Below, piece by piece: positions 1 to 10,562 of a stretch of DNA of 64,000 nucleotides (positions within the stretch are counted from its first letter, which is position 1; each line of letters starts with the position of its first letter). The notes beneath the pieces were generated by a model. The model had not been told where the DNA came from and ran no database searches. It saw only the letters and a program-made list of their open reading frames with translations. The stretch is from an uncultured Acidobacteriota bacterium. Its GTDB lineage: Bacteria; Acidobacteriota; Thermoanaerobaculia; UBA5066. The position numbers and the translations under genes are program-made. The stretch is from positions 115,873-179,872 of the forward strand of contig CAWDEX010000002.1 of assembly GCA_963801475.1 (NCBI GenBank), written 5' to 3'.

Positions 1-360
1 TGCCTGCCGCGGAGCCGCCGCCTTGGCCGCCTGGCGCGCAGCAACGGCCTTGGCCGCCTGACGCGGAGCCGCCGCCTTGGCCGCCTGGCGCGCAGCAACG
101 GCCTTGGCCGCCTGACGCGGAGCCGCCGCCTTGGCCGCCTGGCGCGCAGCAACGGCCTTGGCCGCCTGACGCGGAGCCGCCGCCTTGGCCGCCTGGCGCG
201 CAGCAACGGCCTTGGCCGCCATCTTCGGCGCTACGGACGGCGCGATCGCGGGGTTGCTCCCCAGGCTCGCGACATGCACCTCGGGAATATCGTGTCCCGT
301 GCTCTCCTTGATCTTCGCCTTCTGTTCGTCGGTCAGCTTGATCTTCACTTCGTTTGCCAT
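1..360 (-). CDS. Hypothetical small protein (5' end complete, 3' end runs off window). N-terminal about 55 aa are unique (MANEVKIKLTDEQKAKIKESTGHDIPEVHVASLGSNPAIAPSVAPKM); the rest is Ala/Lys/Gln-rich 18-aa tandem repeats (AAPRQAAKAVAARQAAKA), a histone-H1/AlgP-like low-complexity tail
   Basis: Reverse-complement translation from ATG at 358-360 gives a clean ORF. An AGGAGG-like RBS (rc of 361-372) lies immediately upstream. The plus-strand ORFs 185..679 and 274..462 are low-complexity artefacts of the same repeat. Confidence 0.6.
   Translation of the reverse strand, partial: MANEVKIKLTDEQKAKIKESTGHDIPEVHVASLGSNPAIAPSVAPKMAAKAVAARQAAKAAAPRQAAKAVAARQAAKAAAPRQAAKAVAARQAAKAAAPRQAAKAVAARQAAKAAAPRQA
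11..230. repeat. 54-bp perfect tandem repeat, at least 4 copies, continuing past the window edge. Unit on the plus strand is ggagccgccgccttggccgcctggcgcgcagcaacggccttggccgcctgacgc. It is a coding repeat that specifies the 18-aa protein repeat
   Basis: Unit starts seen at 11, 65, 119 and 173. Copies are identical. No interspersed unique spacers, so this is not CRISPR. Confidence 0.9.
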
Positions 361-407
361 GTCCTTCCTCCTCGTTTTCGTTTCGGCTGTTGGCCGCTTC
401 GTAGTAC

Positions 408-423
408 TGCAAGGGGAAGGCCA
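408..423 (-). promoter_or_regulatory. Candidate sigma54 (RpoN) -24/-12 promoter, TGGCCT-N5-TTGCA on the minus strand, driving the repeat-protein gene
   Basis: The rc of 408-423 reads tggccttccccttgca, matching the TGGCAC-N5-TTGCW consensus with GG and GC at the correct spacing. It lies about 45 nt upstream of the ATG at 360. A sigma54-dependent activator gene is immediately adjacent. Confidence 0.5.
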
Positions 424-509
424 GTCCGGACCGTGGTCTCCTATCGCCATATCTCCCAATGAAAACGGGGGGGGCCGACCGCGGAAGGGAAATCTGACGG
501 CCACCGACC

Positions 510-545
510 GGTTGACTTCTTCAACCGCAGTTGACGTTTTCAACC
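510..545. promoter_or_regulatory. Two tandem palindromes (GGTTGA-N5-TCAACC and GTTGA-N5-TCAAC, about 19-bp centre-to-centre) forming a candidate enhancer/UAS for the sigma54 activator
   Basis: The sites are ggttgacttcttcaacc (510-526) and agttgacgttttcaacc (529-545). They sit about 100 bp upstream of the candidate -24/-12 element, in the 3' flank of the NtrC-like gene. Confidence 0.45.
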
Positions 546-555
546 GTACGCCGGA

Positions 556-1929
556 TCAGAGCCTGTACTTCCGGCAGAGGTACTTCATCTGGTTCGCGTC
601 GAGGCCGAGGGCCGTGGCTGCCCGGGCCTTGACGCCACCCGCCTTTTCGATGGCCCGGCGGAGGAGCTCCTCCTCGTAACGGGCCACCGCGTCGGCCAGC
701 GGAAGCCCGTCCGGAGAGGCTGCCGCCATCCGTGAGGGCTCCGGCGCTCCCACCGCCCCCGGAAGGTGGGCGGGGAGTATCACGTCCTCCTCCACCATCA
801 GGGTCAGCATCTCGACGAGGTGTCCCAGCTCGCGGACGTTTCCCCGGAAGGAGTGCGCCGCCAGCACCGCGAGCGCCTCCGGCGAGAAGCTCTTTGCGGG
901 ACGCCCGTGGCGCCGCGCGGCGTCGTCGGCGAAGTGCGTAACGAGGAGGGGGAGATCCTCGCGCCGCTCGCGGAGCGGCGGGATCGTGAGGACGATCGTG
1001 CTGAGGCGGTAATAGAGGTCCTCGCGGAACTCGCCCTTCGCCGCCCGCGCCTTCAGGTCCTCGTTCGTCGCGGCGATCAGGCGAATGTCGACCGAGATCG
1101 TCTTCGACCCGCCGACGCGCTCGAACTCGCGCCGCTCGAGAACCCGGAGGAGCTTGGCCTGGACCGCCGGGGAGAGAGTGGCGACCTCGTCGAGAAAGAG
1201 GGTGCCGCGGTGCGCCATCTCGAAGCGGCCGGAACGCGTCGCGACCGCTCCGGTGAAGGCGCCACGCTCGTGTCCGAATAGCTCCGACTCGGCGAGGCTC
1301 TCGGGGAGTGCCGAGCTGTTCACGACGACGAAGGGACCGTGGGCACGACGGCTTCCCCGGTGAATCGCCTCGGCCACGAGTTCCTTCCCGGTCCCGCTCT
1401 CCCCGTAGACGAGGACCGTCGCGTCGGACGGCGCCACCTTTCCGATGGCGGAAAAGAGCGCCCGCATTCCCGCGCTCGCGCCGACGAGGCCGCCGAAGGA
1501 GCGCTTCTTCAGCATCTCCTCCCGGAGCGCGCGGTTCTCGCCGACGAGCCGGCGCCGCTCCAGCGCCCGGGTCAGGACGAGGACCAGCTCCGCCGTGTCG
1601 AACGGCTTCCGGAAGACGTCGAAGGCGCCCAGCTCCACGGCCTTCTGCGCGAGGCGGCGGTCGGCCTCCCCCGTCATGACGACGATCGAGGCCTCGGGGC
1701 GGCGCTGGTGGACCTCCGCGACGAGCCTCAGCCCTTCTTCCGCCTCGTTCGACGGCGGGAGCCGGAGGTCGAGGAGGAAGACGTCCGGGTCGCGCTCCGC
1801 GAGGGCGAGCCCCTGCACGGCGTCGGAGCCCTTGAAGAGCTCGAAGCGCCCCTTGAGGGCCCAGCTCAGCTGGTCGAGGAGGAGGGGATCGTCGTCGACG
1901 ACCGCGAGGCGTCCCGGATCCACGCTCAC
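556..1929 (-). CDS. Sigma54-dependent response regulator, NtrC family (REC + AAA+ sigma54-interaction + Fis-type HTH)
   Basis: Motifs GESGTGKE (Walker A), ESELFGHERGAFTGA (GAFTGA loop), and a receiver domain with D at LLDLRLP. C-terminal HTH. Overlaps the upstream kinase by 4 nt. Confidence 0.9.
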   Translation of the reverse strand: MSVDPGRLAVVDDDPLLLDQLSWALKGRFELFKGSDAVQGLALAERDPDVFLLDLRLPPSNEAEEGLRLVAEVHQRRPEASIVVMTGEADRRLAQKAVELGAFDVFRKPFDTAELVLVLTRALERRRLVGENRALREEMLKKRSFGGLVGASAGMRALFSAIGKVAPSDATVLVYGESGTGKELVAEAIHRGSRRAHGPFVVVNSSALPESLAESELFGHERGAFTGAVATRSGRFEMAHRGTLFLDEVATLSPAVQAKLLRVLERREFERVGGSKTISVDIRLIAATNEDLKARAAKGEFREDLYYRLSTIVLTIPPLRERREDLPLLVTHFADDAARRHGRPAKSFSPEALAVLAAHSFRGNVRELGHLVEMLTLMVEEDVILPAHLPGAVGAPEPSRMAAASPDGLPLADAVARYEEELLRRAIEKAGGVKARAATALGLDANQMKYLCRKYRL

Positions 1930-2603
1930 CCCTTTCCGCCCACCGCCGGAAGGGCGATCCTCACCGTCGTCCCCGCGCCCGGCGCGCTCCGGACCTCGAT
2001 GGCTCCCCGGTGAAGGCCCACGATCTGGTGCGCGGCGTAGAGGCCGAGGCCGACGCCGTCGCTCTTCGTCGTCTGGAAGGGACGGAACAGCCGGGTCCGG
2101 AGAAAGTCCTCGGTCATCCCCGGCCCGTCGTCCTCGATCTCGAGGACGGCCTTCCGTCGCCGTCCCCGCCCCTCGGCGTCCGTTCGGACCGAGACCCGCG
2201 CCGCCGCCGCTTCGAGCGCGTTCTCAAGGATGTTCGCCAGGGCCTCCCGGAGGAGGGCCGGGTCTCCCCAGACCTTCGGCGGCTCGCCATAGGCCGCTCC
2301 GACGCTCACGGCGCGTCTGGAAACGTCGGAGGTCCGGAGCAGCTCGCCCAGAAGCTCGTTGACGTCGAGGGGAACCTTGATGAGAACCCCGCCCCGCCGT
2401 CCGGCCCACTGCGTCGCCATGGCGTCGAGCCGCTCGACGGTGCTCCGGAGAAGCTCCGAAACGCTCCGCTTGAACTCCGGGTCGCCGTAGTGCTCGTCGA
2501 GGTTCGAAAGGAGAAGCTGCAGGCGCTGCCCCATGTTCTTCATGTCGTGGAGCAGGACCGAGTCCGCCGCCGCGTGGAGGGGAGGACGCCGCCGCGAGGG
2601 CAT
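1926..2603 (-). CDS. Sensor histidine kinase, truncated (DHp + HATPase_c only, no TM or sensor domain)
   Basis: H-box LLHDMKN. N/G boxes (NILENALEA ... DDGPGM ... GLGLYAAHQIV). 225 aa. Translationally coupled to the regulator gene. Confidence 0.8.
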   Translation of the reverse strand: MPSRRRPPLHAAADSVLLHDMKNMGQRLQLLLSNLDEHYGDPEFKRSVSELLRSTVERLDAMATQWAGRRGGVLIKVPLDVNELLGELLRTSDVSRRAVSVGAAYGEPPKVWGDPALLREALANILENALEAAAARVSVRTDAEGRGRRRKAVLEIEDDGPGMTEDFLRTRLFRPFQTTKSDGVGLGLYAAHQIVGLHRGAIEVRSAPGAGTTVRIALPAVGGKG

Positions 2604-2614
2604 CGGGCCGTTCC

Positions 2615-3427
2615 TCAGGGCGACGCCGCGGCGCCGGCGAAGAGAAGCTGGACGGCCATCCCGGGGCGCATCAGCTTCCTGGGATCCCGCTTGACGCGGA
2701 CCACGACCTGGACCGAGCCGCTTCCGGGGTCGAGGACGGGGCTGACGAACGAAACTCGCCCGGTCGAGCGCGCCTCGGGCAGCTCCTTCGAGACGACCGT
2801 GACCTCCTGCCCGACCTTCACCTTCAGGAGAGCCGGGCCCGGCACGTAGGCCCGGGCCAGGAGCGGCTCGAGCGCGACGACCTTGAAGAGCGGCTTGTTC
2901 TCCTCGAGGAGGACCTTCTCGCCGACCTTGGCGAAACGGTCCGCGACGACGCCGTCGAACGGCGCGCGGACGATCGAGCGGTCGATCACGAGCTGGGCGC
3001 GCTCGAACTCCACGCGAGCCAGCTCGTAGCGGCTCCGCTTCTGCTCGAGCTCGGCCTGGCTGCAGAGGTTCTGGCGGAAGAGCTCCTCGTAGCGCTTGTA
3101 ATCGGCCCGGCTGACGTTCAGCGTCTCCTCCGCCGCCCGGAGGTCGAGGCGGAACTCCCTCTGGTCGATCGTGGCCAGCGGCTGGTTCTTCTGGACCGCG
3201 TCACCCCGCTCGACCTGGAGGCCGTCGATGACGCCCGTCACGCGCGTCGTGACGTTCACTTCCTGGTCCACGACGAGGGTGGCCGCCGCCGCGAGCGGCG
3301 CATCGGCCGGCAGGGGATGCCCGGCCGCGCCGATCGCCGTGACGAGGACGGTCGAAAGGGCCGCGACGGACACCGAAACGCGTGCGCTCGTATCGAACCT
3401 CCGGGATCGGCTCTTTGCCGACATCAT
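2615..3427 (-). CDS. HlyD-family / membrane-fusion (periplasmic adaptor)-like protein, 270 aa, N-terminal membrane anchor
   Basis: This is the C-terminal part of artefactual ORF 2615..6136, starting at MMSAKS. It has a TM anchor, a coiled-coil hairpin (REFRLDLRAAEETL...ELEQKRSRYELARVEFERAQ) and a beta-barrel/lipoyl-like C-terminus typical of HlyD_3. It lies 12 nt upstream of the kinase. Confidence 0.6.
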   Translation of the reverse strand: MMSAKSRSRRFDTSARVSVSVAALSTVLVTAIGAAGHPLPADAPLAAAATLVVDQEVNVTTRVTGVIDGLQVERGDAVQKNQPLATIDQREFRLDLRAAEETLNVSRADYKRYEELFRQNLCSQAELEQKRSRYELARVEFERAQLVIDRSIVRAPFDGVVADRFAKVGEKVLLEENKPLFKVVALEPLLARAYVPGPALLKVKVGQEVTVVSKELPEARSTGRVSFVSPVLDPGSGSVQVVVRVKRDPRKLMRPGMAVQLLFAGAAASP

Positions 3428-3444
3428 ACCGAAGCGGGACGGCT

Positions 3445-4521
3445 TCAAACCTTCCAGTACCACCCCTTCTTCTCGAAGACGAGAAGGACGCCGTACCAGA
3501 AGAGGACCGTGGCGAGGGCGAAGGCGTGCGACCGGAGGGTTGGGTCGCCGATGGCGGAGAAGCCTCCGTAGAGGAACCGGTGGAGGTTCGTCGCCTTCCC
3601 GTCCGCAGCCGTCCACGTCACGAGGCCGAGGATCTTGGCGAGGAGGCCGGAGCCGACGAAGGCAACGAGGGGATTCCGGCCGTACGTGAAGAAGAACCCG
3701 TTCGGGCCGAGCCAGCCGCGGAGGTCGACGGCGACGATCGAGAGGGCCAGCCCCACGCACGCAGAGCCCGACGTGAAGAGGACGTACGAGCCGGTCCAGA
3801 GATTCTTGTTGATCGGGATCCGGAGGTTCCAGAGGAGACCCGCCGCGAGGCCCGCCGCCCCCCAGACGAAGAGCCGCGCCGCCGCTTCCCGGAGACCGGG
3901 GGCCGACTTGCCCTCCCCCTTCCGCGTCAGGACGAAGCCCGCCAGCGTTCCGGTCAGCATCGTGGCGACCGACGTCAGCGTCGAGACGATCCCCTCGGGG
4001 TCCCACTCCTTCTTCCAGAGGTGCCCCCGGAGGAGAGCGAGGTCCACCGCCTTCTGGATGTTCCCCTCCGGTGTCAGGTCGAAGCCGAGTCCCGTCAGGA
4101 GGAACGTGTGGAGCGCCAGAAGGAGGCCCGTCGCCACCCAGAGCCCCGGCACCCTCCGCTTCCAGACCGCGAGGATCAGGAGCGTGCCGAGGACGTAGAC
4201 CACCCCGATTCTCGGCAGGACGCCGGGGATGCGTAGTCGGGCGAGGCGCTCCAGCGTGAAGGGGAACCACGCCATGGCCCAGCCGACGAGGACGATCGTC
4301 ATGCCGCGCGTGACGGCGTGACGGGCGAGGGCGGCGCGCGTGGCGCCGCGGTCCATCCGTTTCGTCAGCGAGAAGACCCCCGCCGTCCCGACGATGAAGA
4401 GGAAGAACGGGAAGATGAGATCCGTCGGCGTCCATCCGTGCCACTCCGCGTGGCCGAAGGGGGGGTAGAGATGCCCCCAGTCGCCGGGGTTGTTGACGAA
4501 GATCATGCCGGCCACGGTCAA
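3445..4521 (-). CDS. Polytopic membrane protein, DUF5009/DUF1624-like (heparan-alpha-glucosaminide N-acetyltransferase-like acyltransferase family)
   Basis: About 10 predicted TM helices and Trp/Phe-rich loops. Family assignment is by overall pattern only. Confidence 0.4.
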   Translation of the reverse strand: MTVAGMIFVNNPGDWGHLYPPFGHAEWHGWTPTDLIFPFFLFIVGTAGVFSLTKRMDRGATRAALARHAVTRGMTIVLVGWAMAWFPFTLERLARLRIPGVLPRIGVVYVLGTLLILAVWKRRVPGLWVATGLLLALHTFLLTGLGFDLTPEGNIQKAVDLALLRGHLWKKEWDPEGIVSTLTSVATMLTGTLAGFVLTRKGEGKSAPGLREAAARLFVWGAAGLAAGLLWNLRIPINKNLWTGSYVLFTSGSACVGLALSIVAVDLRGWLGPNGFFFTYGRNPLVAFVGSGLLAKILGLVTWTAADGKATNLHRFLYGGFSAIGDPTLRSHAFALATVLFWYGVLLVFEKKGWYWKV

Positions 4522-4639
4522 CCCGCGGAAGAAGTCGAGCGAGGCGAAGCGGCCGGGAGGCGGGCCGGGACTCTCTTCGGTGGCGATGCGGCGATGGTAT
4601 CAACGCGCGCGGCGGCCGGCCGGTGGCAAGATCCGGCCG

Positions 4640-6232
4640 ATGGCCCGGACCACGTCCCGCCTCGCCCTCGCCGCGACCGTGGCGCTCTTCGGCCTCTCGG
4701 CCTGCACCATCATCCCGACGGGCCTGACCGTCTCGCCTCCGGACGACGCCGTGGCGCGTCGGGTCGCGAGGATCGCCTCGAAGACACCGGCCCGCCTCGG
4801 CATCGTGGCGCTCCACGTCGAGAGCGGGCGGCGTCTGTCCTGGAACGAGACGGAGAGCTTCGAGGCGGCGAGCGTCATCAAGATCGCCCTCATCGCCGAG
4901 GCCGCCGCCGAGTGGCGGGAGGCCCGCTTCGACCCCAACGACCGGTGGAGGCTGACCGCGGCGTCGAAGGCCGCGGGCTCCGGGATCCTCGGCGAGTTCG
5001 ATCCGGGCCTCATGCCGACGAACCGGGATCTTCTCCGGATCATGATCTCGCTCTCGGACAACACGGCCGCGAACAGCTTCATCGACCGCTTCGGCCCCGG
5101 GGCGGTGAACCGCCGGATGGCGGAGCTCGGGCTCCCCGGAATCCGGCTCATCGGTCGGATTCCCGACGCCGACAAGGAGCCGGAGCGCTGGTCGCCGCTC
5201 GGCCGGATCACCCCCGAGGACACGGCGGAGTACTTCCGACGCCTCTTCGCCGGGACGCTCGTCGACCCGTCCGCGGACTACTTCATGCGGGAGATCTTCC
5301 GGACGCAGCGGACGAAGAACCGGGTCCCGCGCCTCCTCCTCGGGCCAAAGGAGAACCGCTGGGCCGGAAAGACGGGCTCGATGACCGGGATGCGGGGGGA
5401 CGCCGGCGTCCTGACGACGAGGAAAGGGACTTTCGTCCTCGTCGTTCTGGCCGACCGGATCCCGGACGACGACCGGGACGGCTCCGCCGTCACGAGGGCC
5501 ATGGGCGACCTCGCCAAAGCCATCGTGGACGGCTGGTCCGCGACGCTCCCGGACGCGCCCGTCCCTCCGGACGTCAAGCCCGCGCCGACCCTGATGACGG
5601 CCCTGCCCCGGTCGGAGCTGACGCTTCGCGAGGCACGCGCCCGGACAGACGACCCGCTCCTCTTCCGCGTCTTCCGCGACGAGGACCGGCGCTTCTGGCA
5701 GCTCTGGGAGGAAGCCGGCGGGTCGCCCGACGACGCCTGTCTCGTCGCCATGCCCAACTCGTGGTGGGAGGGGTACGGCGCCTCCAAGATCGAGCCTGTC
5801 TCGGCGCTCGTCATTCATCACACCTCCCAGGAGACCGACGAGGAGTGCCTCTCGCTCTTCGCGAAGCCCGAGAGCCAGGTCTCCTCCCACTTCCTCGTCG
5901 GACGCGACGGACGGCTCTGGCAGTTCGTCTCCCTCGAGCACCGGGCGTGGCACGCCGGGCCGTCGCTCCTCCACGGCCGGATCGCCCTGAACCGGACCTC
6001 GATCGGCGTGGAGATCACCGGGGACGGGAACCGGGCCCCCTTCACGGCGGCGCAGGTCGAGACCGTCGTCCGGCTCGTCGGCGTCCTGACGGCCCAGTAC
6101 GGTCTCCAGGCTCCCTGGATCGTCGGCCACGAGCACATTGCCCCGGACCGGAAGAACGATCCGGGGGCCCTCTTTCCCTGGAACGACGTCCTTCGGCGCT
6201 CTCTGACGCTGGCGCGGACGCTCTCGCGGTGA
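4640..6232 (+). CDS. Lipoprotein fusion: N-terminal class A beta-lactamase-like (penicillin-binding fold) domain + C-terminal N-acetylmuramoyl-L-alanine amidase (Amidase_2 / AmpD-PGRP type)
   Basis: Start at MARTTSRLALAATVALFGLSAC (lipobox LSAC), which is M51 of ORF 4490..6232. N-domain motifs are SVIK (SxxK), SDN and KTG, with no ExxLN omega loop. C-domain motifs are HHTS...SSHFLVGRDGRLWQ...AWHAG...IGVEITG...GHEHIAPDRKNDPG, the AmpD zinc-amidase signature. Confidence 0.7.
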   Translation: MARTTSRLALAATVALFGLSACTIIPTGLTVSPPDDAVARRVARIASKTPARLGIVALHVESGRRLSWNETESFEAASVIKIALIAEAAAEWREARFDPNDRWRLTAASKAAGSGILGEFDPGLMPTNRDLLRIMISLSDNTAANSFIDRFGPGAVNRRMAELGLPGIRLIGRIPDADKEPERWSPLGRITPEDTAEYFRRLFAGTLVDPSADYFMREIFRTQRTKNRVPRLLLGPKENRWAGKTGSMTGMRGDAGVLTTRKGTFVLVVLADRIPDDDRDGSAVTRAMGDLAKAIVDGWSATLPDAPVPPDVKPAPTLMTALPRSELTLREARARTDDPLLFRVFRDEDRRFWQLWEEAGGSPDDACLVAMPNSWWEGYGASKIEPVSALVIHHTSQETDEECLSLFAKPESQVSSHFLVGRDGRLWQFVSLEHRAWHAGPSLLHGRIALNRTSIGVEITGDGNRAPFTAAQVETVVRLVGVLTAQYGLQAPWIVGHEHIAPDRKNDPGALFPWNDVLRRSLTLARTLSR

Positions 6233-9433: not shown

Positions 9434-10562
9434 CCACCCCGAGCCCCGGGCCCTTCGGCTCCTGCCACACTCCCTCCACGATCGCCAGGCCCTTGAAGGG
9501 ATCGTTCGAGATGAGGAGGTTCCCGTCGAGGTCGAGCCAGTCGTAGAGCGGCGCCACGGCGACGCCGGCCGCGATGCCGAGCGACGACTCGATCATGCAG
9601 CCGAGCATCAGCTTGAAGCCGAGAGCGCGCCCGAGGGCCGCCATCTCGTAGGCCCTCGTGATCCCCCCGCACTTGGCGAGCTTGACGTTGATTCCGTCGA
9701 AGAGCCCGGCGAGCGACGGGACGTCCCCCGGGTGGAGGACCGACTCGTCCGCGACGAGCGGGAGCGGCGACGCGGCCTTCACCGCCCCCATCGCCGCGTT
9801 CTTCGACGCGGGCATCGGCTGCTCCACGAACTCGATTCCCATCGTGGCGAGCCACTTGATCCGCGAGATCGCCTCCTCGGGCGTCTGCCATCCCTCGTTG
9901 GCGTCGACGCGGATCGGCTTGCCCGTCACCGCCCGGATGGCCCGGACGTTCTGCTCGTCGGTCGGGAGCCCGACCTTCACCTTCAGCGACGGGTACCTCT
10001 CTCCTTCCTTCACCTTCTGCTGCATGACCTCGGGACTGTCGATGCCGATCGTGAAGGTCGTCACCGCCATCCGGTTCGCCGGCACCCCGAGGAGGCGGTG
10101 AACGGGGACGCCGAGCTTCTTCCCCTTCCAGTCCCAGAGGGCCATGTCCAGCGCCGCCACGATCTGCGAATCGGCGCCCGCCTCCTTCTCGGCCCGCTCG
10201 AGCCAGGCGAGGTGCTCCCACGGCGCAAGCCCCTCGACGGCCTTCTTCACGCGGGCGAAGGCCGCCTCGCCCGAATCCCAGCTCTGGCCGTAACGGACGT
10301 TCGCCGCCGCCTCGCCCAGGCCGGTGACGCCGTCCGCCGTGAACGTGACGAGGCCGTTCTTCTTCTCGGTCGACGAGTTGCGGGAAATGGTCCAGGTGTG
10401 CGTCAGCTTCAGCTCGAGCGGCGAGAGAGAGAGGGCCGGCTTTCCGGCCGACGGCGCGGTCGCGGCGGCCTGCGAGGCGAGGGCGGCTTCGGGGAGAAAG
10501 GCCCCGGTCGCCAGCGCGGCGGAGCCCCGGAGGAGGGAGCGGCGGGAGAGGTCGCCCGGCAT
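9423..10562 (-). CDS. Enolase-superfamily dipeptide epimerase (L-Ala-D/L-Glu epimerase-like, MR/MLE family) with a twin-arginine (Tat) signal peptide
   Basis: N-terminus SRRSLLRGSAALATGAF...ALA. MR_MLE motifs KVKVG, VDANEGW, and a KxK/D/E/D metal-site pattern. The convergent 3' end overlaps gene 7121..9433 by 11 nt. Confidence 0.75.
   Translation of the reverse strand: MPGDLSRRSLLRGSAALATGAFLPEAALASQAAATAPSAGKPALSLSPLELKLTHTWTISRNSSTEKKNGLVTFTADGVTGLGEAAANVRYGQSWDSGEAAFARVKKAVEGLAPWEHLAWLERAEKEAGADSQIVAALDMALWDWKGKKLGVPVHRLLGVPANRMAVTTFTIGIDSPEVMQQKVKEGERYPSLKVKVGLPTDEQNVRAIRAVTGKPIRVDANEGWQTPEEAISRIKWLATMGIEFVEQPMPASKNAAMGAVKAASPLPLVADESVLHPGDVPSLAGLFDGINVKLAKCGGITRAYEMAALGRALGFKLMLGCMIESSLGIAAGVAVAPLYDWLDLDGNLLISNDPFKGLAIVEGVWQEPKGPGLGVVRA

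What the first reader, a model, noticed from the sequence alone, without database searches (positions are those of the whole stretch)
361..2603. Self-contained sigma54 circuit: HK/NtrC-like pair, two tandem palindromic UAS, strong -24/-12 promoter, AGGAGG RBS, repeat-protein gene
Immediately downstream of the sigma54-activator gene stop (556) lie two palindromes, GGTTGA-N5-TCAACC at 510-526 and 529-545. About 100 bp further downstream sits TGGCCT-N5-TTGCA at 408-423 on the minus strand, then an RBS and the ATG at 360. This is the classical geometry for a bacterial enhancer-binding protein looping onto an RpoN promoter. It implies that the small Ala/Lys-repeat protein is the dedicated output of this two-component system. 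The kinase has no sensor domain, so the signal may come through the co-operonic membrane proteins.
Basis: seen in the sequence. Interest (0 to 1): 0.65.

Follow-up and report, generated by a model that had tools for sequence, protein, structure and literature searches.

The report
Sigma-54 switch driving a repeat-peptide precursor
A sensor-less kinase and its sigma-54 activator sit next to a conserved enhancer and -24/-12 promoter that drive one small gene, and that gene most likely encodes a leader-bearing precursor peptide with a fast-evolving tandem-repeat tail, part of an uncharacterised seven-gene cluster found in about 90 Acidobacteriota loci.

Summary

- **Promoter:** TGGCCT-N5-TTGCA lies at 423-408. 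TGGY-N7-TTGC occurs 20-90 nt before the start codon in 85 of 85 related loci (0.16 expected).
- **Enhancer:** a 17-bp motif, GGWTGA-AAAAK-TCAWCC, is found in 77 of 85 loci. Its centre sits about 127 and/or about 108 nt upstream of the -12 GC.
- **Specificity:** within ±10 kb, both motifs occur almost only in front of the small gene.
- **Regulators:** the kinase is always a roughly 225-260 aa cytoplasmic protein with its His box near residue 20. The activator has a receiver domain, an AAA+ domain with GAFTGA, and an HTH.

It has a conserved 40-residue N-terminal module followed by hypervariable tandem repeats with periods of 4-24 residues. The same module heads double-glycine bacteriocin-like precursors beside a C39 transporter and a radical-SAM enzyme in Terriglobia.

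In every locus with enough flank, three convergent genes follow the small gene: an M50 intramembrane protease fused to an HlyD-type adaptor (closest to RiPP leader proteases), a GAF-HlyD protein and a STAS protein.

Most likely this is a sigma-54-gated precursor peptide that is cleaved and exported. Cleavage, export and peptide function are inferred.

The parts
1..360 (-). Small gene, 5' part (ATG at 360; runs off the window). Residues 1-40 form a conserved leader-like module (MANEVKIKLTDEQKAKIKESTGHDIPEVHVASLGSNPAIA). An 18-residue AAKAVAARQAAKAAAPRQ tandem repeat follows.
   Evidence: Codon-position entropy of 19.6/18.6/37.1 shows purifying selection on the protein. AlphaFold2 gives strand(4-8)-helix(11-21)-strand(27-31) at pLDDT 85-94, with a disordered tail.
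2..220 (-). Tandem DNA repeat inside the small gene: 54-nt unit, 4.1 copies, 99% identical. Each unit consists of two 27-nt half-units that are 81% alike.
   Evidence: The 93%-identical relative L045 has about one unit fewer, and its units are homogenised to a different synonymous variant. This indicates copy-number change and concerted evolution.
367..372 (-). Shine-Dalgarno AGGAGG, six nt before the ATG.
   Evidence: An AGGAGG-like site is present at the same place in most related loci.
408..423 (-). Sigma-54 promoter TGGCCT-N5-TTGCA, with GG at 422-421 and GC at 410-409. The predicted transcription start is near 398, giving a 5' UTR of about 38 nt.
   Evidence: 85 of 85 loci against 0.16 expected. 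No sigma-70-like promoter lies in the interval. The start site is inferred, not mapped.
510..526 (-). Proximal enhancer site GGTTGAAGAAGTCAACC, centred 108 nt upstream of the -12 GC.
529..545 (-). Distal enhancer site GGTTGAAAACGTCAACT, centred 127 nt upstream of the -12 GC and 19 bp from the proximal site.
556..1929 (-). NtrC-type enhancer-binding response regulator, 457 aa: receiver domain, AAA+ sigma-54 interaction domain with GAFTGA, and a Fis-type HTH.
   Evidence: Pfam. The best NCBIfam match is PrsR (TIGR02915) at 413.8 bits, below its 502.6 cut-off. GAFTGA was found in 50 of 61 upstream ORFs extracted. The HTH helix LGLDxNQ[IM]KYLCRKY is nearly invariant across loci.
1926..2603 (-). 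Cytoplasmic histidine kinase without a sensor domain, 225 aa, with H-box HDMKN at residue 19. Its stop overlaps the regulator's start.
   Evidence: it matches only positions 482-679 of the 679-position PrsK profile (143.9 bits, cut-off 300). Searches (58 of 61 loci keep the H-box; no TM segment).
2615..3427 (-). HlyD/RND-type periplasmic adaptor, 270 aa, with one N-terminal membrane anchor. It ends 11 nt before the kinase start and is co-oriented with it in all loci.
   Evidence: (TIGR01730, 151.7 bits, above cut-off).
3445..4521 (-). NagX-like polytopic membrane protein, 358 aa, upstream in the same orientation. It is not part of the conserved core.
   Evidence: NF046061, 123.8 bits, below its 480 cut-off. 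It is present in only about 15 of the loci.

Best explanation
**The transcription unit.** A cytoplasmic, sensor-less histidine kinase phosphorylates the adjacent NtrC-type activator. Activator dimers bind one or two 17-bp sites (GGWTGA-N5-TCAWCC) just after the activator's own stop codon. They oligomerise, loop to the -24/-12 promoter about 110-130 bp downstream, and use ATP hydrolysis to open the sigma-54 holoenzyme complex. The product is a monocistronic transcript of the small gene.

**The product.** The small gene encodes a precursor peptide. A conserved 40-residue leader module (strand-helix-strand, ending G-x-N-P-A) is followed by a disordered, usually polycationic tandem-repeat 'core'. 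The core changes repeat unit and copy number quickly.

**Processing.** The convergent operon lies just beyond the window. It encodes STAS, GAF-HlyD and an M50 protease-HlyD fusion. Together with the small adaptor encoded in the kinase operon, these proteins are proposed to recognise the leader, cleave it and pass the repeat peptide or its fragments across the envelope.

**Signal input.** The kinase probably reads the state of this machinery rather than an external ligand.

**Status of each step.**
- Shown by sequence and comparison: the cis-elements, the domain content, the conserved synteny and the kinship of the leader family.
- Inferred: phosphotransfer, binding of this activator to these sites, cleavage, export and the function of the peptide.
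- My confidence is about 0.85 for the sigma-54 circuit, about 0.6 for 'precursor peptide', and about 0.4 for 'cleaved by the M50 fusion and exported'.
For: **Circuit.**
- -24/-12 element in 85 of 85 loci against 0.16 expected.
- 110 enhancer sites in 77 of 85 loci against 0.22 expected, at near-fixed distances of about 127 and about 108 nt from the -12 GC. When two sites are present they are 19-20 bp apart.
- Both motifs are confined to the small gene's upstream region within ±10 kb.
- The activator has a receiver domain, GAFTGA and an HTH. Its recognition helix is invariant, as is the TGA/TCA core of the site.
- The kinase H-box is conserved.
- There is no sigma-70-like promoter, Rfam match or intrinsic terminator between 361 and 555.
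- A terminator follows the small gene in L045.

**Precursor.**
- The N-terminus is conserved and the repeat tail is hypervariable in 88 loci.
- A profile of the N-terminal module retrieves double-glycine peptides (…LTEKDLDxVAGG plus a 7-12 residue core).
- In L094 five such genes sit beside a C39-peptidase ABC transporter, an HlyD adaptor, an outer-membrane factor and a radical-SAM enzyme.

**Machinery.**
- Where enough downstream flank is present, the M50-HlyD fusion follows the small gene. GAF-HlyD and STAS lie beyond it where the contig reaches that far.
- The M50 part has HEFAH and NxxPxxxxDG motifs. Its best curated matches are the daptide and YydH/LiaK RiPP leader proteases.
- A distant branch with acidic 'DRANP' repeats keeps the same layout: kinase, sigma-54 activator, -24/-12 promoter, small gene, then convergent M50-HlyD, adaptor and GAF-HlyD.
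Against: - No experiment of any kind supports the model.
- The -24/-12 match in the window alone is not significant.
- rpoN was not found in any sequence held. Only the window and the fetched flanks could be checked.
- No modification enzyme, ABC/RND/MFS transporter or outer-membrane factor belongs to the conserved core. An energy source for export is therefore missing, and the peptide may be unmodified.
- The M50 match to the RiPP protease families is below their curated cut-offs (156 against 300; 44 against 225).
- The repeat tails share no common modifiable residue. Most are basic, which fits an intracellular polyanion binder equally well.
- The kinship with double-glycine peptides rests on a 30-residue module. 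The E-values were about 1e-3 to 1e-4 in the first profile search and stronger only with a profile built from those hits.
- The enhancer position-weight matrix was built from the sites it then scores, so site counts are somewhat circular. The flanking GG/CC conservation and the fixed spacing were not imposed, however.
Confidence: 0.6

Rival explanations
1. The circuit is as described, but the small protein stays inside the cell as a histone-H1-like or polyanion-binding disordered protein (nucleoid, RNA or polyphosphate). The N-terminal module would then be a dimerisation or docking domain rather than a leader.
For: - The tails are 28% Ala and 22% Lys+Arg, with net positive charge in 77 of 81.
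- There is no signal peptide or membrane segment.
- A basic-tailed relative gives sub-threshold hits to the histone H1-like families HC2 and NF038053.
Against: - Some members have acidic or neutral repeats: L043 has net charge -14, and L085/L086 and the DRANP branch are similar.
- The window protein itself matches no histone-like family.
- Linkage to an M50-HlyD protease and two further HlyD-type envelope proteins is constant.
- The N-terminal module is shared with double-glycine precursors in a peptidase-transporter cluster.
Confidence: 0.15
2. The small protein is not a product but a regulatory substrate. The M50 protease degrades it as part of a partner-switching or signalling loop with the STAS and GAF proteins, and the repeats simply set its half-life or valency.
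For: - M50 proteases classically act in regulated proteolysis (established knowledge of site-2 proteases).
- The STAS protein keeps a DSTG phosphorylation motif.
- The distant cluster carries an FHA-GAF-SpoIIE phosphatase.
- GAF domains suggest small-molecule control.
Against: - The small protein has no transmembrane helix, which is the usual site-2 protease substrate feature.
- The closest curated relatives of this M50 domain are peptide-maturation proteases, not RseP or SpoIVFB.
- Three HlyD-type periplasmic domains are hard to explain for a purely cytoplasmic signalling loop.
Confidence: 0.15
3. The tandem palindromes are mainly an RNA hairpin that ends or attenuates the kinase-activator transcript. 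The -24/-12 promoter would be served by a different activator.
For: The 66-nt RNA covering both palindromes folds to -28 kcal/mol, z = -3.6, and it lies immediately after the activator stop codon.
Against: - No U-tract follows, and the terminator scan finds nothing there.
- 44 loci have only one site, which gives a 6-bp stem.
- Positions 3 and 15 of the motif do not co-vary to keep pairing. GGTTGA…TCATCC and GGATGA…TCAACC are both common.
- The A-rich spacer is conserved in orientation.
- The distance to the -12 element is fixed to within 1-2 nt in about 40 loci, which a terminator would not require.
Confidence: 0.05

Closest known systems
PrsK/PrsR control of PEP-CTERM genes (Haft et al. 2006, PMC1569441)
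   Same: - The best NCBIfam matches of both regulators are PrsR and PrsK.
- The design is the same: single-gene transcription units preceded by a long intergenic region, carrying a 17-nt activator motif (sometimes repeated), a spacer, and a -24/-12 sigma-54 element.
   Different: - Both proteins score below the family cut-offs.
- The kinase lacks the whole transmembrane/sensor part, matching only positions 482-679 of the PrsK profile.
- The activator motif is GGWTGA-N5-TCAWCC rather than the motif ending in TTTACA.
- The motif-to-promoter spacing is longer here (centre of the nearest site about 107 nt from the -12 GC; the paper gives a gap of about 63 nt between motif 1 and motif 2).
- The target has no signal peptide or PEP-CTERM domain, and no exosortase context was seen.
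NtrB/NtrC-glnAp2 type enhancer-dependent promoters
   Same: - A receiver-AAA+(GAFTGA)-Fis-HTH activator.
- Two dyad sites of 6-N5-6 geometry, two helical turns apart, about 110-140 bp upstream of a GG-N10-GC promoter. This comparison rests on established knowledge of NtrC.
   Different: - A different site sequence.
- A kinase of only 225 aa with no PAS or other input domain.
- The regulon appears to be a single adjacent gene.
Double-glycine leader peptides exported by C39-peptidase ABC transporters (class II bacteriocin and NHLP/Nif11-type RiPP precursors)
   Same: - A conserved leader followed by a hypervariable core.
- The N-terminal module of the window's protein is homologous to the N-terminal part of the leader in Terriglobia double-glycine precursors. 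Those sit next to a C39 transporter, an adaptor, an outer-membrane factor and a radical-SAM enzyme.
   Different: - The window's subfamily has no GG motif.
- There is no C39 transporter in the conserved core.
- The core is a long tandem-repeat array instead of a 7-12 residue peptide.
M50-family RiPP leader proteases (daptide protease NF041824; YydH/LiaK NF058609)
   Same: The membrane part of the convergent 731-aa protein aligns over nearly the whole daptide-protease profile (E = 1e-45). It keeps the HExxH and NxxPxxxxDG motifs.
   Different: - Scores are below the curated cut-offs.
- The protease is fused to a complete HlyD-type periplasmic adaptor.
- No daptide or epipeptide tailoring enzymes are present.

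Membership tests
NtrC-type bacterial enhancer-binding response regulator | N-terminal receiver domain with the phospho-acceptor Asp | tested here: met
   PF00072, 61.2 bits against a 30.2 cut-off, residues 9-117. The DVFLLDLRLPP motif is visible in the translation.
NtrC-type bacterial enhancer-binding response regulator | AAA+ sigma-54 interaction domain with the GAFTGA loop | tested here: met
   PF00158, 230 bits. GAFTGA is present in the window protein and in 50 of 61 orthologous ORFs extracted.
NtrC-type bacterial enhancer-binding response regulator | C-terminal Fis-type HTH and a dyad-symmetric upstream site | tested here: met
   PF02954, 23.9 bits against a 22 cut-off. A conserved 6-N5-6 motif lies upstream of the promoter. 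Actual binding was not tested.
Sigma-54 promoter | GG and GC dinucleotides separated by 10 nt, placed before a gene and conserved in orthologous regions | tested here: met
   TGGCCTTCCCCTTGCA at 423-408. TGGY-N7-TTGC is present in 85 of 85 loci, against a shuffle mean of 0.16.
Sigma-54 promoter | Transcription start about 12 nt downstream, dependent on rpoN and an activator | not testable with these tools
   This needs 5'-end mapping and mutants. No rpoN gene lies in the window or the fetched flanks, which says nothing about the rest of the genome.
PrsR (TIGR02915) / PrsK (TIGR02916) PEP-CTERM regulatory pair | Scores above the equivalog cut-offs, and a full-length transmembrane kinase | tested here: not met
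   413.8 against 502.6 bits for PrsR, and 143.9 against 300 bits for PrsK. Only positions 482-679 of the PrsK profile are covered, and no TM segment is present.
PrsR (TIGR02915) / PrsK (TIGR02916) PEP-CTERM regulatory pair | PEP-CTERM target genes, and an upstream motif 1 ending in TTTACA | tested here: not met
   The small protein matches no Pfam or NCBIfam family. The upstream motif is GGWTGA-N5-TCAWCC, unlike the motif described in PMC1569441.
Leader-bearing precursor peptide (bacteriocin/RiPP-type) | Conserved leader joined to a hypervariable core | tested here: met
   Residues 1-40 are conserved and conservation collapses afterwards. Tails differ completely between loci.
Leader-bearing precursor peptide (bacteriocin/RiPP-type) | Leader homologous to that of precursors in recognised maturation/export clusters | tested here: met
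   Profile searches link it to double-glycine peptides. In L094 these lie beside a C39 ABC transporter, an adaptor, an outer-membrane factor and a radical-SAM enzyme.
Leader-bearing precursor peptide (bacteriocin/RiPP-type) | Dedicated leader peptidase in the cluster | tested here: inconclusive
   An M50 domain with intact motifs is always adjacent. Its matches to RiPP protease families are below cut-off, and cleavage is untested.
RiPP in the strict sense | Post-translational tailoring enzyme encoded with the precursor | tested here: not met
   The conserved core holds only adaptor, kinase, activator, M50-HlyD, GAF-HlyD and STAS genes.
Tripartite efflux / type I secretion system | Energised inner-membrane transporter plus outer-membrane factor together with the adaptor | tested here: not met
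   Three HlyD-type proteins are present, but no ABC, RND, MFS or OEP gene is in the conserved neighbourhood.
Histone H1-like / HC2 basic repeat proteins | Match to PF07382 or NF038053 above cut-off | tested here: not met
   There is no hit for the window protein. A distant basic-tailed member reaches only 29-30 bits against cut-offs of 40 and 80.

The most novel reading that the evidence does not exclude
This may be a previously unrecognised peptide production system of Acidobacteriota. A sigma-54 two-component switch would gate a leader-bearing precursor whose core is a rapidly expanding and contracting tandem array of short units. An intramembrane M50 protease physically fused to a periplasmic adaptor, working with a GAF-regulated second adaptor and a third small one, would remove the leader (and perhaps cut between units) and release many copies of a strain-specific, usually polycationic peptide. 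No ABC transporter would be involved.
Probability: 0.35. Interest if true: 0.8.

Novelty: new variant of a known kind. Interest (0 to 1): 0.62.

Why it matters
The regulatory half is textbook enhancer-dependent transcription. It is unusually clean, however: one kinase, one activator, one or two sites and one gene, conserved with near-fixed spacing in about 85 uncultured genomes. That makes it a ready-made, testable sigma-54 module for a phylum with almost no genetics.

The output is the interesting part.
- It is a family of more than 100 small proteins with an invariant 40-residue head and a tail that reinvents its repeat unit between close relatives. Examples are AKPL x25, ANTPR x28, SGKSL, MRAQKA and ESADTSI.
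- It is always paired with a protease-adaptor fusion that has no described function.
- If the tails are secreted, these abundant soil and wetland bacteria make strain-specific repeat peptides (antimicrobial, matrix or signalling) by an unknown export route.
- If the tails are not secreted, this is a new kind of tunable disordered protein under strict on/off control.

The link to the double-glycine peptides also points to a large unexplored precursor family in Terriglobia.

Tried and rejected
- **Exact-sequence look-up of the window's activator:** found nothing, so the source contig could not be extended. The 93%-identical contig L045 was used instead.
- **Foldseek of the small-protein model against the PDB:** only noise, E > 5. 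The folded part is about 30 residues.
- **Rfam on 1-3000:** no RNA family.
- **PADLOC:** no defence-system match for the cluster proteins, apart from generic AAA+ activator similarity.
- **Literature searches** for M50-HlyD fusions, daptide-type proteases with HlyD, repeat precursors in Acidobacteria, 'putative peptide zinc metalloprotease' and Thermoanaerobaculia sigma-54: no description of this system.
- **IHF-like or other conserved element between enhancer and promoter:** promoter-anchored conservation shows nothing universal.
- **First promoter regular expression:** it used the wrong spacer (N8) and found nothing. It was corrected.
- **Context look-ups for several distant members:** only sub-kilobase contigs came back.
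- **Double-glycine members:** they do not show a clear -24/-12 element, so sigma-54 control is a trait of the repeat-type branch, not of the whole leader family.
- **The 1173-aa ORF at 2615..6136:** an open-frame artefact of 70% GC. The real gene is the 270-aa adaptor.
Full report
**1. What is in the window**

Everything lies on the minus strand. The order is:
- a NagX-like membrane protein (4521-3445);
- a 270-aa HlyD/RND-type periplasmic adaptor (3427-2615);
- a 225-aa histidine kinase (2603-1926), starting 11 nt after the adaptor stop;
- a 457-aa activator (1929-556), whose GTG start overlaps the kinase stop;
- a 195-nt intergenic region;
- a small gene starting at 360 that runs off the left end of the window.

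The intergenic region holds GGTTGAAAACGTCAACT (545-529), GGTTGAAGAAGTCAACC (526-510), TGGCCTTCCCCTTGCA (423-408) and AGGAGG (372-367). The window is 70% GC. The long overlapping ORFs are therefore artefacts.

**2. Is it more than chance?**

- The two palindromes are the only matches to GGTTGA-N5-TCAAC (up to 1 mismatch) in 64 kb. None of 100 shuffles gave as many.
- The -24/-12 match is unique in the window but not significant alone, since 18 of 100 shuffles also gave one.
- No sigma-70-like promoter, intrinsic terminator or Rfam family lies in 1-3000.

**3. The proteins**

*Activator.* It has a receiver domain, a sigma-54 interaction domain (230 bits), an AAA lid and a Fis-type HTH, and it carries GAFTGA.

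*Kinase.* It has only HATPase_c after a short DHp-like segment with H-box HDMKN at residue 19, and no hydrophobic segment.

*Family assignment.* Both have their best NCBIfam match in the PEP-CTERM regulatory pair, but below cut-off. PrsR scores 413.8 against 502.6, and PrsK scores 143.9 against 300. The kinase covers only the last 200 positions of the PrsK profile. They are paralogues of that pair, not members of it.

**4. Related loci**

- The small protein matches no Pfam or NCBIfam family.
- A search of 5.8 billion proteins found eight relatives.
- Scans of one-genome-per-species contigs and of JGI metagenomes then gave 86 loci. All named ones are Acidobacteriota, mostly Thermoanaerobaculia MAGs from soils and wetlands.
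- tblastn of the neighbours shows the same arrangement wherever there is enough flank: adaptor, kinase, activator and small gene on one strand. Convergent on the other strand are a STAS protein, a 798-aa GAF-HlyD protein and a 731-aa M50-HlyD fusion.
- The NagX-like gene is present in only a subset.

**5. Conservation of the cis-elements**

*Promoter.* TGGY-N7-TTGC lies 20-90 nt before the start codon in 85 of 85 loci with at least 200 nt of upstream sequence. The shuffle mean is 0.16 and the maximum 2 (sites listed).

*Enhancer.* A matrix built from TGA-N5-TCA hits gives the consensus GGWTGA-AAAAK-TCAWCC, with GG and CC conserved although they were not selected for. It finds 110 sites in 77 of 85 loci, against 0.22 in shuffles. 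Of these loci, 44 have one site and 33 have two sites 19-20 bp apart.

*Spacing.* Site centres cluster at 125-128 nt and about 107 nt upstream of the -12 GC. The window has 127 and 108.

*Specificity.* In 675 kb from 36 long loci, both motifs are essentially confined to the 250 nt before the small gene.

*Activator helix.* The recognition helix (LGLDxNQ[IM]KYLCRKY) is nearly invariant, matching the invariant TGA/TCA core of the site.

*Hairpin alternative.* The two palindromes can also form an RNA hairpin (-28 kcal/mol, z = -3.6). Four points argue for a protein-binding site instead:
- no U-tract follows the hairpin;
- many loci have only a single site;
- positions 3 and 15 do not co-vary to keep pairing;
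- the distance to the promoter is fixed.

*Transcript end.* In the 93%-identical contig L045, a GC-rich hairpin followed by TTTTCATT comes right after the small gene, so the transcript is monocistronic.

**6. The small protein**

*It is a real gene.* Third-codon-position entropy is twice that of positions 1 and 2 over the first 34 codons. A Shine-Dalgarno site is at the right distance in most loci. The translated tails read as in-frame peptide repeats.

*Head.* Residues 1-40 are highly conserved (M-[AGS]-N-E-V-[KR]-I-K-L-T-D-[EA]-Q-K-A-K-I-K-E-A-T-G … E-I-R-V-x-S-[LF]-G-x-N-P-A). Conservation then collapses. AlphaFold2 predicts strand 4-8, helix 11-21 and strand 27-31 at pLDDT 85-94, with a disordered tail.

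*Tail.* The tail is a near-perfect tandem repeat whose unit differs between loci. The period is 4-24 residues. Examples are AKPL x25, ANTPR x28, AAPRN, MRAQKA, SGKSL, AGRAAGKSI, KHLKHT, the acidic ESADTSI, SSKDL and REQGL. Composition is A 28%, R 11%, K 11%, S 11%, T 7% and P 6%, with no Cys or Trp. Net charge is positive in 77 of 81. Full length is 87-227 aa.

*Repeat dynamics.* In the window the unit is 54 nt, with 4.1 copies or more at 99% identity. L045 has about one unit fewer, and its units are homogenised to different synonymous codons. This indicates copy-number change and concerted evolution.

**7. What the head is**

- A profile of the 43 N-terminal residues, searched against 1.84 billion representatives, found 139 proteins. 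Nearly all are small and carry the module at the very N-terminus.
- The distant hits include a branch with 'DRANP' repeats. They also include short peptides in which the module is followed by a classical double-glycine leader end and a 7-12 residue core, for example …TELNIDLAATGQLTEKDLENVAGG-ETFKSEKL.
- A profile built from these retrieves 623 proteins, many from Terriglobia and Bryobacteraceae. JGI calls two of them 'bacteriocin-like protein'.
- In locus L094, five such genes and three other GG-type genes lie beside a C39-peptidase ABC transporter, a second ABC protein, an HlyD adaptor, an outer-membrane factor, a radical-SAM enzyme and two SET-domain proteins.
- The module therefore behaves as part of a leader peptide.
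- The DRANP branch (L095, L096) keeps the window's architecture. It has a HAMP-containing kinase, a sigma-54 activator and TGGCCCGGCAGTTGCT 62 nt before the small gene. Convergent on the other strand are M50-HlyD, an adaptor, GAFx3-HlyD and an FHA-GAF-SpoIIE phosphatase. A second DRANP contig also has TGGCAT-N5-TTGCT.
- The double-glycine genes show no clear -24/-12 element.

**8. The partner machinery (outside the window)**

- The membrane half of the 731-aa protein aligns over almost the whole profile of the daptide intramembrane protease (E = 1e-45), and also matches the YydH/LiaK epipeptide protease. Both scores are below cut-off.
- It keeps the HEFAH and NINPLIKIDG motifs. Its C-terminal half is a full HlyD-type adaptor.
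- The 798-aa protein has three GAF stretches followed by a membrane segment and an HlyD-type adaptor. The STAS protein keeps a DSTG motif.
- No transporter, outer-membrane factor or tailoring enzyme is part of the conserved core.

**9. Interpretation**

The most economical reading of the whole locus is as follows:
- a sigma-54-gated precursor peptide whose leader is recognised and removed by the M50-HlyD fusion;
- a repeat core that is released to the envelope or outside the cell;
- a soluble kinase that reports on the machinery.

The main rivals are an intracellular basic disordered protein and a proteolytic signalling substrate. Both keep the circuit and differ only in the fate of the product.

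**10. Comparison with known systems and novelty**

- The closest regulatory precedent is PrsK/PrsR with PEP-CTERM genes (PMC1569441). The design is the same, but the motif, the kinase architecture and the target differ.
- The closest product precedents are double-glycine precursors and M50-processed RiPPs. This locus differs from them in three ways: a repeat-array core, a protease-adaptor fusion, and the absence of a transporter or tailoring enzyme.
- I found no paper describing this family or cluster.
- The regulatory half is a new member of a known kind. The locus as a whole is best called a new variant of leader-guided peptide production.

Noticed in passing
window 2-220 compared with L045 430-635: The 54-nt repeat differs in copy number between two 93%-identical strains. 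Within each strain all units carry the same synonymous variants (GCCGTTGCTGCGCGCCAG in the window, GCGGTGGCTGCGCGGCAG in L045). This is concerted evolution of the array.
   Followed up: partly
L043 9306 and 10001: One Thermoanaerobaculia MAG carries two tandem paralogues of the small gene, both with acidic ADTSIES repeats (156 and 103 aa). The kinase-activator pair sits correspondingly further upstream.
   Followed up: no
L006, L007, L009, L026, L037 (small gene at 10001): In several long-read MAGs the small ORF continues for 150-570 aa after a frame change inside the repeat (GGQGRPGGQG… tails). These are probably repeat-induced assembly or base-calling errors rather than real proteins.
   Followed up: no
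L094 6200-13000: A Terriglobia-type contig has eight double-glycine precursor genes, five of them with this leader module. Two SET-domain proteins, a 646-aa radical-SAM enzyme, a C39 ABC transporter, an adaptor and an outer-membrane factor are alongside. It looks like an undescribed RiPP-type cluster.
   Followed up: partly
L095 12567-14264 and L001 14975-15310: A partner-switching flavour accompanies the system. A STAS protein with a DSTG motif is present in the Thermoanaerobaculia clusters, and an FHA-GAF-SpoIIE (PP2C) phosphatase in the distant DRANP-type cluster. No dedicated anti-sigma-type kinase was seen other than the sensor-less histidine kinase.
   Followed up: no
window 3445-4521 (-): A 358-aa polytopic membrane protein weakly related to the glucosamine N-acetyltransferase NagX (123.8 bits, cut-off 480) ends 18 nt before the adaptor gene. 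It accompanies the cluster in only about 15 loci.
   Followed up: partly
L095 5900-5965: Upstream of the DRANP-type small gene the GGWTGA-N5-TCAWCC motif is absent. Three GGCAA-containing repeats (GGCAAAGGGAATTTTTACCC, GGGGCAATCATTCCCC, ATGGCAAATTTTCTCCC) occupy the equivalent position and may be a different enhancer for that activator.
   Followed up: no
C-termini of the small proteins: Many tails end either in Ser/Ala plus a hydrophobic or aromatic residue (…KATY, KSSV, KAGF, KMSY, DDSV) or in a short acidic cap (…DNDE, LEDE, GDDTAE). This may be a recognition or capping feature. The pattern is not universal.
   Followed up: no
window 2615-6136 (-) and other ORFs over 900 aa: Very long overlapping ORFs on both strands are open-frame artefacts of the 70% GC content. 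Mechanical ORF lists are unreliable in this window.
   Followed up: yes
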